Source: a virus
Lineage: Duplodnaviria; Heunggongvirae; Uroviricota; Caudoviricetes
Length of the DNA stretch: 24,381 nucleotides
IMG/VR virus record: IMGVR_UViG_2531839666_000027
Direction: 5' to 3' (one strand)
Numbering within the stretch: the stretch's first letter is position 1; every line of letters begins with the position of its first letter. This document shows positions 6,692 to 9,021 of this stretch, one piece after another. The notes beneath the pieces were generated by a model, which saw only the letters and a list, made by a program, of their open reading frames with translations, searched no databases and was not told the origin of the DNA. The position numbers and the translations under genes were made by a program.

Positions 6692-6707
6692 GCTGTAACT
6701 GTAGTGG

Positions 6708-7612
6708 TCAAGTAATATTGGCCACGGTTTTACAGTAAAAATGGTATCTGTTCTCTGACTCTTCCGGCGTCAGCCCACCGTTATAATGGTGAGGTCTGAC
6801 GCTGTTGTAGTAGTTCAATATGTAATCATTAATTTGCTGCCGGGCCTCGTCCTTGCCTGCGTAACCATTCGTTGGCACCCATTCTGTTTTCAGACTGCGG
6901 AAGAAGCGTTCCATGGGGCTGTTATCCCAGCAGTTTCCCCGCCGACTGACGCTTTGATTTATTCTGCAACGCCAGAGAAGTTGTTGATATTTAAGGCCTG
7001 TATACTGGCTTCCCTGGTCGCTATGGAACACGACATTTGGCCACGCGTCTCATAGGCCATCCGCACACTGCTTATCAGTGCGGTATCGGCATGCGCTGAC
7101 AGACTCCAGCCGATAACCCTGCGGGCAAAAAGATCCATAACAACCGCCAGATAGCACCAGCGATTTCCTGCCCAGAGATACGTAATATCTCCACACCATA
7201 CCCGGTCTGGCTCCGGTACTGCGAACTGACGCTCAAGCAGATTCGGCAGGCTGGTATGCTCCTGACGGGCATTTTTATACTGATGTTTTCCGGGCTGACA
7301 ACTGCTCAGGTTCAGATATTTCATCAGACGTCCGGCACGGTAACGGCTCATCGGGACGCCGTTTTGAGTCAGCATTTCAGCCAGAGTGCGCGCGCCCGCA
7401 GAGCCCCGACTTTGGTTCCACGCCCGGCGTATTTCGCTGCACAACCTGACTCGTGCCGGATTAACCGTATCGCGTCGTTTTCGCCAGTACCGGTAACTGC
7501 TGCGGTGTATTTCCAGAGCAGAACACAGGCTGACAACCGTGTGGCTGTCACTTAGTCTGGCGGCTATCGTGAACCGTTCAGCGAGTCGGACATTAAGAGC
7601 GCGGTAGCCTTT
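6708..7612 (-). pseudogene. IS3-family OrfB DDE transposase, disrupted: +1 (not -1) relative to orfA, plus an internal frameshift near 7035-7045
   Basis: DDE residues visible (WCGDITY..., [23 protein letters not shown]) but split across two frames (ORFs 6959..7444 and 6708..7031); the motif ETRGQ / [10 protein letters not shown] changes frame at GGCCAAATG. Confidence 0.7.
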
Positions 7613-7874
7613 TTAATATCGTATTTTGTTCCTCCAGACGGCGAACTTGCTTTTCCAGCTCGCGGATACGTTGCTGGTCTGGAGTAATGGGTGTGGCAGA
7701 GGGCGTAATACCCTGGCGCTCTCGCCTGAGCTGGCGTACCCAGCTCTCAAGCGTGGTTGAACCGACATTCATCGCTTCACTGGCCTGTCGATATGAGTAG
7801 CCCTTATCAACAATCAGCTGTGCACATTCCAGCCTGAACTCAGGGGTGAAGGTTCGTTTGGTTTTCTTGTTCAT
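7593..7874 (-). CDS. IS3-family OrfA (HTH transposase regulator); its C-terminus is altered by loss of one A in the frameshift heptamer
   Basis: [30 protein letters not shown]... with HTH and leucine-zipper-like region; ATG 7874..7872. An alternative frame at the 3' end encodes the canonical IS911-like tail [16 protein letters not shown]. Confidence 0.8.
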
Positions 7875-7941
7875 TAAGTCACCTGTTTTGTGTTGTGGTG
7901 AGAATATCACCTTTCATCAGGTGGCCAAATTTAGTGTGCCA

Positions 7942-9021
7942 CTACACACCGACCATCTGCATCGGGTTATAACTGGAAACACCAATACCACGTTCAGTCA
8001 GTGACATACGGGCATATTCACGCAGGGTCATCCCGTTGTAGACATTATCACGTTCAGTTTTTTCAAACCCGGCGCGCGCCATCAGCGCCTGGCGGATCCC
8101 GTCCCCCACAAAATTACCGTTACCGGCATAAATATGAGCCGGGGTATTTTTATTGGATGGCGTGGACTCGCGCCCCATCTCGTTCAACAGCTTTTCGCGG
8201 GCCTGCTCCAGCGAACATTCAGGATCGGCAAGACACTGAGCCTGCAACGACTGATAACGCCCGCCAAACATGGCAAACAGATCATTAATACCGTTTACAC
8301 GCGCTTTTTGCTCTGCCAGGACCTGCGCACGGATGCTGTTTTCATCCACCACGGGTGCTGCTGCCTGCACTGGCGTCCGGGAGGCTGCAGGTCCATCATC
8401 CTGTACGCGTGGAGCACTGTTGCGTGGCGGAGTAATCATATTTCGAATGGATTCCGGCATCTTTTTAAATTCCTCTGTACGTTTTGACTGAATACATGCC
8501 ATTGCCTTAACGGCTGGTGTCACCTGATCAGCAAATCCCTGTGCCAGACATTCGGCACCGGACATCCAGGTCTCATCCGCCAGCATGGCAGCAATTTCAT
8601 CGGTGGTTTTCCCGGTTTTCTGTGCATAAGCGGGTAACAGAACCGCCTCAACTCTATCGAGCAGGTCGGCATAGGTGCGCATGTCCTCCGCATCACCGCC
8701 CGTAAAGCCAAATGGTTTATGAATCATCATGAAGGTGTTTTCCGGCATAATGACCGGGTTTCCTACCATCGCAATGACCGACGCCATTGACGCCGCCACA
8801 CCGTCGACATAAACGGTAATGGACGCACCATGTGTTTTCAGCGCATTAAAAATGGCGATGCCTTCAAAGACATCGCCACCCGGTGAATTAATATGGAGAT
8901 TAATGTGGGTGATATCGCCCAGTGCATTCAGATCACTGATAAACTGCTTCGCTGTAACACCCCAGAAACCAATCTCGTCATAAATATAAATATCCGCGTC
9001 ACTCTGGTGACCAGCCTGCAT
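7942..9021 (-). CDS. prohead (head maturation) protease, ClpP/S49-like (lambda C-like position), fused to a downstream scaffold/capsid-like segment; 3'-truncated by the IS
   Basis: Starts at ATG 9021..9019 ([21 protein letters not shown]...), just after the portal stop; ClpP-like core HINSPGGDV...MASVIAMVG; the frame runs into the IS terminal repeat and stops at TAG 7944..7942. Confidence 0.75.

What the first reader, a model, noticed from the sequence alone, without database searches (positions are those of the whole stretch)
6700..7946. The IS copy is itself crippled: slippery heptamer A6G reduced to A5G, plus a second frameshift in orfB
IS3-family transposase OrfAB needs a programmed -1 frameshift on A-AAA-AAG. 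Here the minus-strand site reads TTAAAAAGG (five A), so orfA ends ...[10 protein letters not shown], while the canonical IS911-like tail [16 protein letters not shown] lies in another frame and orfB is now +1 rather than -1. orfB is also split between ETRGQ and [10 protein letters not shown] (about 7035-7045), consistent with a 4-bp loss. This copy should not be able to make transposase.
Basis: partly seen in the sequence, partly recalled or inferred. Interest (0 to 1): 0.5.

Follow-up and report, generated by a model that had tools for sequence, protein, structure and literature searches.

The report
Probable sequencing errors in ordinary IS
The "crippled" insertion sequence is an ordinary, well-known IS3-family element, and its missing bases most likely come from the same homopolymer sequencing errors that break six other genes in this window, not from real mutations.

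Summary
Window 6700-7946 (minus strand) holds a 1247-bp copy of a 1258-bp IS3-family element. The literature and PGAP call it ISCfr6. It is IS911-like but not IS911. The details differ. The orfB break is a 7-bp loss (CCCCGGG), not 4 bp, and there is also an in-frame 3-bp loss (CCC).

Four sister genomes carry the same IS at the same site, intact. The window copy differs from them by these three deletions and by no substitutions. Outside the IS, the window carries 14-15 more single-base deletions, no insertions and only 3-6 substitutions. Nearly all of these deletions lie in homopolymers: 6 of 34 six-base runs are one base short. They break pinQ, terminase, ynfN, rrrQ, ydfT and ydfU, all intact in the relatives. 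This is the signature of homopolymer under-calling in an unpolished assembly.

The A5G is therefore most likely an artefact. The 3- and 7-bp losses occur nowhere else in the data searched. They are probably artefacts too, but this is not shown. Even if all three are real, this is just a dead IS copy. Interest is low.

The parts
6700..7946 (-). IS3-family insertion sequence (ISCfr6-like), 1247 bp here against 1258 bp in intact copies
   Evidence: blastn and MAFFT against intact copies L001-L005: 0 substitutions, 11 bases missing in 3 deletions. The conceptual OrfAB of intact copies scores 360.6 bits on NF033516 IS3 family transposase, cut-off 160.
7921..7946 (-). Left terminal inverted repeat (IRL), 5'-TGTAGTGGCACACTAAATTTGGCCAC
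   Evidence: Inverted repeat I1, 26 nt, 77% complementary. The first 80 bp are 81% identical to the IS911B left end.
6700..6725 (-). Right terminal inverted repeat (IRR), ending ...CCACTACA
   Evidence: The flanks here are GTG and GTT, so there is no perfect 3-bp target duplication. Copies elsewhere have GTT, GTG, CTG, AGA, ATA or TAA duplications.
7593..7874 (-). orfA as written: 93 aa with an HTH domain and the aberrant tail ...ILKRLPRS*; intact copies give 103 aa ending ...[18 protein letters not shown]
   Evidence: (PF01527 HTH_Tnp_1, E 6e-13).
7608..7616 (-). Frameshift site as written, TTA AAA AGG (A5 at 7614-7610); intact copies read TTA AAA AAG G, with the A AAA AAG heptamer
   Evidence: One A is missing relative to all five intact copies fetched (L001-L005) and relative to all but 4 of 1866 matching E. 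coli records.
6959..7609 (-). orfB-frame N-terminal part (GYRALNV...ETRGQ, HTH_21 plus the first part of rve with the first catalytic Asp), then 23 out-of-frame codons to a stop
7065..7066 (-). Junction of the 3-bp deletion (CCC on the IS strand; SSALRM becomes SSVRM), in frame
   Evidence: Not found in any other copy.
7036..7037 (-). Junction of the 7-bp deletion (CCCCGGG on the IS strand), which shifts the orfB frame just before the second catalytic Asp
   Evidence: Not found in any other copy.
6708..7031 (-). orfB C-terminal fragment (...FHSDQG...SPMERFF...), carrying the second Asp and the Glu of the DD(35)E triad
   Evidence: (rve_3, rve_2, end of rve).

Best explanation
The feature is a real, ordinary IS3-family insertion sequence (ISCfr6-like) lying at a deletion junction in a Qin-like cryptic prophage.

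In intact copies, orfA (HTH DNA-binding protein) and orfB (DD(35)E catalytic domain, -1 frame) are fused into the OrfAB transposase by programmed -1 ribosomal frameshifting on A AAA AAG. This is established for IS911 and the IS3 family and is inferred here by homology.

The apparent crippling of the window copy is most likely not biological. The missing A in the slippery run is one of about 15 single-base homopolymer under-calls scattered through the window. These are typical residual consensus errors of a long-read or flow-based assembly that was not polished with accurate reads. The 3-bp and 7-bp losses each remove a whole C/G run, inside a repeated element. They are most simply further consensus errors, but this step is inferred, not shown.
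For: 1. Four complete genomes match 100% of the window at 99.9% and hold the IS at the same site. It is annotated there as an intact IS3 transposase with programmed frameshift (WP_085968792.1). The window copy differs from them by 0 substitutions and 3 deletions.
2. Against L004 and L005, the whole window shows 17-18 deletion events, 0 insertions and 5-6 substitutions. Nearly all single-base deletions lie in homopolymers, for example T6 to T5, A8 to A7, T7 to T6 and C5 to C4.
3. The effect depends on run length. The shortened fraction is 6 of 34 six-base runs, 1 of 7 seven-base runs and 1 of 3 runs of eight or more, against under 1% of 3-5-base runs. No run is lengthened.
4. A third, independent genome without the IS (strain D3) shows the same 11 window-only deletions in 16.4 kb, against 2 substitutions.
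5. These deletions break pinQ, terminase L, ynfN, rrrQ, ydfT and ydfU. The last five carry identical WP accessions in CFIAFB20190167, KY202 and D3.
6. A rate of about one indel per 1.6 kb, extended genome-wide, would mean thousands of frameshifts, which is not credible biologically (inference).
7. The A5 state is rare among real copies: 4 of 1866 records and 3758 places. The truncated OrfA is on 25 contigs, against at least 1000 for the intact one. The window's own error rate at six-base runs is about 18%, so the odds strongly favour error.
8. Some of the other A5 calls also sit in assemblies with homopolymer-type second changes or frameshifted neighbouring genes (L006, L008, L023, L024).
9. 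The 3- and 7-bp losses have no flanking microhomology (read). They are found in no other copy.
10. Published background: long-read-only bacterial assemblies usually keep homopolymer-length errors, and these are hardest to fix in repeats (PMC8812927). Such errors pseudogenise genes (PMC12007338).
Against: - No reads or assembly metadata are available, so nothing is shown at read level.
- The 3-bp and 7-bp deletions do not belong to the window's general error class, which is single bases. Three other CCCGGG sites and seven other CAGGGC sites in the window are untouched. They therefore need a separate cause that I could not identify.
- A5 alleles do exist as reproducible alleles elsewhere. The same site and the same private SNP recur in three independent samples (L011, L014, L015), and a sibling IS shows A5 at one site in at least four samples. 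A real A6-to-A5 change is therefore possible.
- The first 2 kb of the window (non-prophage) has 8 runs of six or more bases and no deletions. That is compatible with chance but gives no support.
Confidence: 0.72

Rival explanations
1. Mixed case. The A5 call is a sequencing error, but the 3-bp and 7-bp orfB deletions are real. This IS copy is then truly dead, though for a different reason from the headline one.
For: The two multi-base deletions differ in kind from the other window errors, which are single bases. They are not motif-systematic. They lie 29 bp apart, so they could be one complex event.
Against: Sister strains with only 3-6 substitutions in 24 kb have the intact sequence. Two deletions without microhomology, each removing exactly a whole G/C run, are unusual as spontaneous mutations. 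No other copy shows either one: about 1,755 matching places for this segment in complete E. coli genomes, GTDB species representatives and JGI metagenomes were searched. The background consensus quality is demonstrably poor.
Confidence: 0.15
2. All three deletions are real. This is a recently pseudogenised IS copy that makes only a truncated OrfA-like protein and no transposase.
For: The sequence as written. Slippery A-runs are natural mutation hot spots. A5 alleles recur at 8 or more other insertion sites.
Against: It requires three independent deletions and no substitution in 1.26 kb since the split from sister strains. It leaves the 14-15 other deletion-only homopolymer differences in the same window unexplained.
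Confidence: 0.08
3. The A5 allele is a working recoding variant. TTA AAA AGG C would act as a Ty1-like +1 frameshift site: P-site tRNA-Lys slips from AAA to the overlapping AAA while the rare AGG codon waits, and the next codon read is GGC. This would give OrfAB lacking one Lys.
For: The frame arithmetic fits exactly. AGG_C matches the last four bases of the Ty1 site CUU_AGG_C, where a slow AGG and an abundant +1-frame GGC drive the shift, and tandem rare AGG codons cause frameshifting in E. coli (PMC5009743). A5 alleles occur at 8 or more different sites, five of them with clean 3-bp duplications, and six keep orfB intact. PGAP annotates three of them as programmed frameshift, which reflects pipeline behaviour only.
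Against: No A5 allele shares a private marker between two sites, so nothing shows that an A5 copy has ever moved. A5 is very rare, about 0.1% of places. Several A5 calls sit in error-prone assemblies. In this window the question is moot if the 7-bp deletion is real.
Confidence: 0.04

Closest known systems
ISCfr6 (IS3 family), as named in STEC genome papers and by PGAP
   Same: A fragment identical over the 131 bases compared is labelled 'IS3-like element ISCfr6 family transposase' by PGAP. PMC9397093 reports six intact ISCfr6 copies in O121:H19, and an O121 genome shows six places for this IS. Intact copies are 1258 bp, start TG and end CA, make 3-bp duplications and have orfA/orfB with A6G.
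   Different: The window copy lacks 11 bases (1 + 3 + 7) and has no target duplication. I had no ISfinder reference sequence, so the name rests on annotation and literature, not on an alignment to the type element.
IS911 (IS3 family)
   Same: Same architecture. The left end is similar (81% over the first 80 bp). The A AAA AAG site lies at the end of orfA, and the family shares the DD(35)E orfB. The frameshift mechanism, three-way-junction stimulator and cis preference are documented for IS911 (PMC5009743).
   Different: Only two segments align with K-12 IS911B: the left 80 bp at 81% nucleotide identity and the 3' part of orfB at 66%. That is far below what would make it the same IS. 'IS911-like' is a fair label; 'IS911' is not.
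ISEc31 and other about 92-94% identical sibling ISs
   Same: Collinear over all 1258 bp at 92-93.7% identity, with the same slippery site and frames.
   Different: They carry 79-101 substitutions. The window copy has none relative to the ISCfr6-like consensus.
Homopolymer-length consensus errors of long-read or flow-based assemblies
   Same: Deletion-only, dependent on run length, gene-fragmenting, and absent from close relatives. This matches the published description (PMC8812927, PMC12007338).
   Different: The 3-bp and 7-bp losses are larger than the typical single-base error and are confined to the IS.

Membership tests
IS3 family insertion sequence | Length about 1.2-1.55 kb with terminal inverted repeats starting 5'-TG and ending CA-3' | tested here: met
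   1247 bp here and 1258 bp intact; TGTAGTGG...CCACTACA; 26-nt inverted repeats, 77% complementary.
IS3 family insertion sequence | orfA with an HTH domain and orfB with an rve DD(35)E domain; the transposase matches the family model | tested here: met
   Pfam HTH_Tnp_1, HTH_21, rve, rve_3 and rve_2 on the fragments. The conceptual OrfAB of intact copies scores 360.6 bits on NF033516, cut-off 160. D...D(35)E was counted in the sequence.
IS3 family insertion sequence | orfB in the -1 frame, with an A AAA AAG-type slippery heptamer at the orfA/orfB overlap | tested here: not met
   Met in the five intact reference copies fetched (L001-L005). In the window copy as written the run is A5G and orfB is +1. 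This is probably an artefact, so the failure concerns this sequence record, not the element type.
IS3 family insertion sequence | 3-4 bp direct target duplication | tested here: not met
   The flanks here are GTG and GTT. The same flanks occur in the sister genome KY202 (L001), so this is real and reflects an IS-associated deletion. Copies elsewhere have perfect 3-bp duplications.
IS911 proper | Near-identity to the IS911 reference (same-IS level, roughly 95% nucleotide identity or more) | tested here: not met
   Against K-12 IS911B, 81% over the left 80 bp and 66% over the 3' part of orfB; the rest does not align by blastn.
ISCfr6 | Near-identity to the ISfinder ISCfr6 type sequence | not testable with these tools
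   No type sequence was available. Support is indirect: the PGAP label on a fragment identical over the 131 bases compared, and the copy number in O121:H19 matching PMC9397093.
Assembly artefact: homopolymer under-calling | Indels strongly biased to one direction and located in homopolymers, with frequency rising with run length | tested here: met
   17-18 deletion events against 0 insertions. Shortened fraction: under 1% of 3-5-base runs, 18% of six-base runs, 14% of seven-base runs, 33-50% of runs of eight or more.
Assembly artefact: homopolymer under-calling | Differences are private to this record and break genes that are intact and identical in close and more distant relatives | tested here: met
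   Six genes are broken besides the IS. Five of them carry the same WP accessions in three other genomes. The same deletions appear against independent strain D3.
Assembly artefact: homopolymer under-calling | Read-level or orthogonal-technology evidence for the longer run | not testable with these tools
   No reads were available, and the source record was not found. Exact look-ups of window-specific proteins and junction patterns returned nothing.

The most novel reading that the evidence does not exclude
Loss of one A turns the -1 site A AAA AAG into AAA AGG C. This is a Ty1-like +1 frameshift site: a perfectly re-pairing tRNA-Lys, a hungry AGG codon and an abundant +1-frame GGC. A5 alleles of this IS occur at eight or more insertion sites, most with intact orfB. 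They could therefore still make an OrfAB lacking one Lys and remain mobile.
Probability: 0.04. Interest if true: 0.55.

Novelty: not a real feature. Interest (0 to 1): 0.08.

Why it matters
It matters mainly as a quality warning. This window carries about one deletion error per 1.6 kb. Any pseudogene, frameshift or 'decay' finding from it, or from the rest of its genome, should be distrusted until checked against accurate reads. That covers the IS, terminase, lysozyme rrrQ, ydfT, ydfU, ynfN and pinQ.

Biologically the element is a common, recently active IS3-family IS. A dead copy would be unremarkable. The only idea with some wider interest is that a one-base loss in an A6G site creates a plausible +1 frameshift site. 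That is speculative and untested.

Tried and rejected
1. **Cross-talk with a diverged sibling IS as the cause of the 3- and 7-bp losses.** Both deletions fall on the densest clusters of differences between this IS and a 93.7% identical sibling, the L007 type (P about 0.03 and 0.014). However, that sibling has no exact match in complete E. coli genomes. The E. coli siblings (ISEc31 type, SMS-3-5 type) show no such clustering. This is left as inconclusive.
2. **Motif-specific (methylation-type) errors.** Three other CCCGGG sites and seven other CAGGGC sites in the window are unaffected. Rejected.
3. **Finding the source record or other copies with the same lesions.** I tried exact protein look-ups of the window's tail fibre and of the 161-aa orfB fragment. 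I also searched junction patterns in GTDB representatives and JGI metagenomes. Nothing was found.
4. **A spreading A5 lineage.** A5 alleles at different sites share no private marker. There is no support for this.
5. **A strong frameshift-stimulating structure downstream of the slippery site.** The fold is not significantly more stable than shuffled sequences (z = -1.55). Not informative.
6. **The neighbouring IS just beyond the window end in sister genomes.** It is a different IS3-family element with an AL1L pseudoknot. Not relevant.
7. **A mutator or relaxed-selection explanation for the homopolymer deletions.** Rejected on the reversed indel-to-substitution ratio, the absence of insertions, the transversion-rich substitutions and the implausible genome-wide load (inference).

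Full report
**What is in the sequence**

On the minus strand, window 6700-7946 holds an insertion sequence. It has 26-nt imperfect terminal inverted repeats, TGTAGTGG... and ...CCACTACA. An HTH-type orfA runs from 7874 to 7593. Two fragments of an rve/DDE orfB lie at 7609-6959 and 7031-6708.

The run at 7614-7610 is five A, so orfA reads TTA AAA AGG CTA CCG CGC TCT TAA and ends ...[10 protein letters not shown]. The orfB frame (GGC TAC CGC..., GYRALNV...) is now +1 relative to orfA.

**Comparison with intact copies**

The element is very common. A megablast against 5,426 complete E. coli genomes found 6,073 places in 2,416 genomes. Intact copies are 1258 bp. NCBI annotates them as 'IS3 family transposase, programmed frameshift' (WP_085968792.1).

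An alignment with three intact copies, one of them at exactly the same insertion site, shows no substitutions in the window copy. It shows three deletions:
- one A of the A6 run;
- CCC in GTGCCCTGCGG, in frame, changing Ala-Leu to Val;
- CCCCGGG in GGCCAACCCCGGGATGTCG, which shifts the frame.

So the orfB break is a 7-bp loss, not the 4 bp suggested. The intact protein reads [16 protein letters not shown]. The break separates the first catalytic Asp (WCGDITY) from the second Asp and the Glu, which are 35 residues apart.

The conceptual -1 frameshift product of intact copies matches the NCBIfam IS3 transposase model end to end (360.6 bits, cut-off 160).

**Identity of the element**

Only two segments align with K-12 IS911B: the left 80 bp at 81% nucleotide identity and the 3' part of orfB at 66%. 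It is therefore IS911-like, not IS911.

PGAP labels a fragment identical over the 131 bases compared as 'ISCfr6 family'. A paper on STEC O121:H19 reports six intact ISCfr6 copies (PMC9397093). An O121 genome shows six places for this IS. Related elements at 92-94% identity, such as ISEc31, also circulate.

**Context**

The window is a Qin-like cryptic prophage. Its gene order is ydfJ', ydfK, pinQ, tfaQ, tail fibre, the IS, a truncated ClpP/capsid gene, portal, terminase, cspI, rzpQ, rrrQ, essD, cspB, ydfT, ydfU, rem and hokD.

Four complete genomes match all 24,381 bases at 99.9% with the IS at the same site. The IS has no target duplication here: its flanks are GTG and GTT, and the sister genome KY202 has the same flanks. 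Copies elsewhere have clean 3-bp duplications. Strain D3 has the full capsid fusion gene followed by about 15 kb of head and tail genes at this position. The IS therefore marks a deletion junction. That part is real and is shared with the sister strains.

**The decisive comparison**

I aligned the whole window to two sister genomes. The window has 17-18 deletion events, no insertions and only 5-6 substitutions.

Apart from the two multi-base losses in the IS, every deletion is a single base, nearly always in a homopolymer. Examples are T6 to T5, A6 to A5, A8 to A7, T7 to T6 and C5 to C4. A few lie in runs of 2-3 bases.

The effect rises with run length:

| Run length in reference | Runs shortened in window |
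|---|---|
| 3-5 bases | under 1% |
| 6 bases | 6 of 34 |
| 7 bases | 1 of 7 |
| 8 or more bases | 1 of 3 |

No run is lengthened.

An independent genome that lacks the IS (D3) shows the same 11 window-only deletions in 16.4 kb, against 2 substitutions.

These deletions truncate or shift pinQ, terminase L, ynfN (twice), rrrQ, ydfT (twice) and ydfU (twice). All but pinQ carry identical protein accessions in CFIAFB20190167, KY202 and D3.

A real mutational process giving one indel per 1.6 kb would imply thousands of frameshifts per genome. It would also have to produce almost no substitutions, no insertions and mostly transversions among the few substitutions. A mismatch-repair mutator spectrum does not look like this (inference from established knowledge).

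The pattern is the known residual error of long-read-only or flow-based assemblies, which fragments genes and is hardest to correct in repeats (PMC8812927, PMC12007338).

**What this means for the A5G**

The slippery run is an A6 run in a record where about 18% of six-base runs are one base short. Among real copies the A5 state is rare:
- 4 of 1,866 records and 3,758 places in complete E. coli genomes;
- 25 contigs for the truncated OrfA, against at least 1,000 (a capped count) for the intact one across public assemblies.

The likelihood ratio is roughly two orders of magnitude in favour of error. I put the probability that the A5 is an artefact at about 0.85-0.9.

**The 3-bp and 7-bp losses**

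These are harder to explain.
- They are the only multi-base differences in the window.
- They occur in no other copy searched: about 1,755 matching places for this segment in complete genomes, GTDB representatives and JGI metagenomes.
- Each removes exactly a whole C or C+G run, with no flanking microhomology.
- Other CCCGGG and CAGGGC sites in the window are untouched.

I tested whether they could come from mixing reads of a diverged sibling IS. They coincide with the densest difference clusters against one sibling, the L007 type. That sibling is not found in complete E. coli genomes, and the E. coli siblings show no such clustering. The idea is unproven.

Three points favour error. The consensus quality is demonstrably poor. 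Sister strains that differ by only a handful of substitutions have the intact sequence. Two such deletions arising 29 bp apart in so short a time is very unlikely. I consider artefact the more probable reading (about 0.7-0.75 for all three together), but real deletions cannot be excluded.

**A5 alleles elsewhere**

An exact look-up of the truncated OrfA found it in 35 blocks of public assemblies. Together with the complete genomes, A5 alleles occur at eight or more different insertion sites. Five of these have clean 3-bp duplications, and six keep orfB intact.

They share no private marker, so they look like independent events or independent errors, not a spreading lineage. Some are reproducible across samples: L011, L014 and L015 share A5 plus 894G>A, and the sibling IS at one site has A5 in four or more samples. 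Those are probably real. Others sit in assemblies with homopolymer-type second changes or frameshifted neighbouring genes (L006, L008, L023, L024) and may be errors.

**Most novel reading**

The A5 sequence TTA AAA AGG C would allow a +1 shift. tRNA-Lys would re-pair from AAA to the overlapping AAA while the rare AGG codon is awaited, and GGC, the orfB frame, would be read next. The product would be OrfAB minus one Lys.

This mirrors the Ty1 site CUU_AGG_C. It is also in line with frameshifting at rare AGG codons in E. coli (PMC5009743). An IS3-family group that uses a different recoding route, transcriptional slippage on A9, is known (PMC6211511).

There is no evidence that any A5 copy has moved, and for this window the point is moot. 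I give this reading about 4%.

**Verdict**

The IS is real, known and ordinary. Their biological interpretation as a crippled copy is probably an artefact of the assembly. Even if it is real, it is an unremarkable dead IS. The useful outcome is the warning that this window, and probably its whole genome, carries systematic homopolymer deletion errors.

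Noticed in passing
window 2317, 3207, 12736, 15137, 15578, 15591, 17443, 18414, 19597, 19870-19876, 20450, 20757: Window-only single-base deletions, almost all in homopolymers. They break pinQ (last codons), terminase L, ynfN, rrrQ, ydfT and ydfU, which are intact in relatives. Any pseudogene finding from this window is suspect.
   Followed up: yes
window 6697-6699 and 7947-7949 (IS flanks); compare L019 15117-17144 and upstream: The IS has no target duplication here (flanks GTG and GTT). 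It joins a truncated ClpP/capsid fusion gene directly to a tail-fibre gene, where strain D3 has about 15 kb of head and tail genes. This is an IS-associated deletion shared with four sister genomes. STEC strains carry the IS-excision enhancer, which promotes such deletions next to IS3-family elements (PMC9397093).
   Followed up: partly
window 7756-7878 (-): The Rfam family isrC 'Hfq binding RNA' (RF01387) matches the 5' part of the IS orfA at 150 bits (gathering score 39). This 'sRNA' family appears to be the start of this IS type.
   Followed up: no
window 7024-7044 versus 7921-7941: The 7-bp deletion creates a 21-nt stretch that is 86% complementary to the left inverted repeat (TGGAACACGACATTTGGCCAC against IRL). 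In intact copies the two half-matches are separated by the 7 deleted bases. This could be coincidence or a hint of a templated event. It is unexplained.
   Followed up: partly
L022, L023, L024 (NZ_AP021914.1, NZ_CP123964.1, NZ_AP026908.1): PGAP annotates A5 alleles of this IS as 'programmed frameshift' with their own WP accessions (WP_197732135.1, WP_136759404.1), although the -1 heptamer is absent. The annotation pipeline hides the lesion.
   Followed up: partly
L007, L009, L010, L012 (Logan and ENA assemblies): A 93.7% identical sibling IS, also with A5 and intact orfB, sits at one site inside a defence island (reverse transcriptase, DEAD helicase, AbiH, nSTAND3, peptidase S8, QatB/QueC) in at least four samples.
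   Followed up: no
window 3340-3538 (-), 15845-16230 (-), 18739-19131 (-), 22421-22595 (-): Rfam hits above the gathering score: IS009 sRNA next to tfaQ and pinQ, two cspA-type thermoregulator leaders (cspI and cspB), and the sok antisense RNA of hokD.
   Followed up: no
window 3881-6691 (-): The tail-fibre protein has three near-identical tandem copies of an approximately 44-residue unit ([15 protein letters not shown]...AQDATTAQ). It follows a long Ala/Ser/Thr-rich low-complexity region. The pinQ invertase gene lies nearby.
   Followed up: no
just beyond window end (L016 1010-2223; L004 24607 onward): In sister genomes another IS3-family element, with an annotated AL1L pseudoknot, lies 2 bp beyond the window's last gene. 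It splits a DUF4209/DUF7380 gene that is whole in strain D3.
   Followed up: partly
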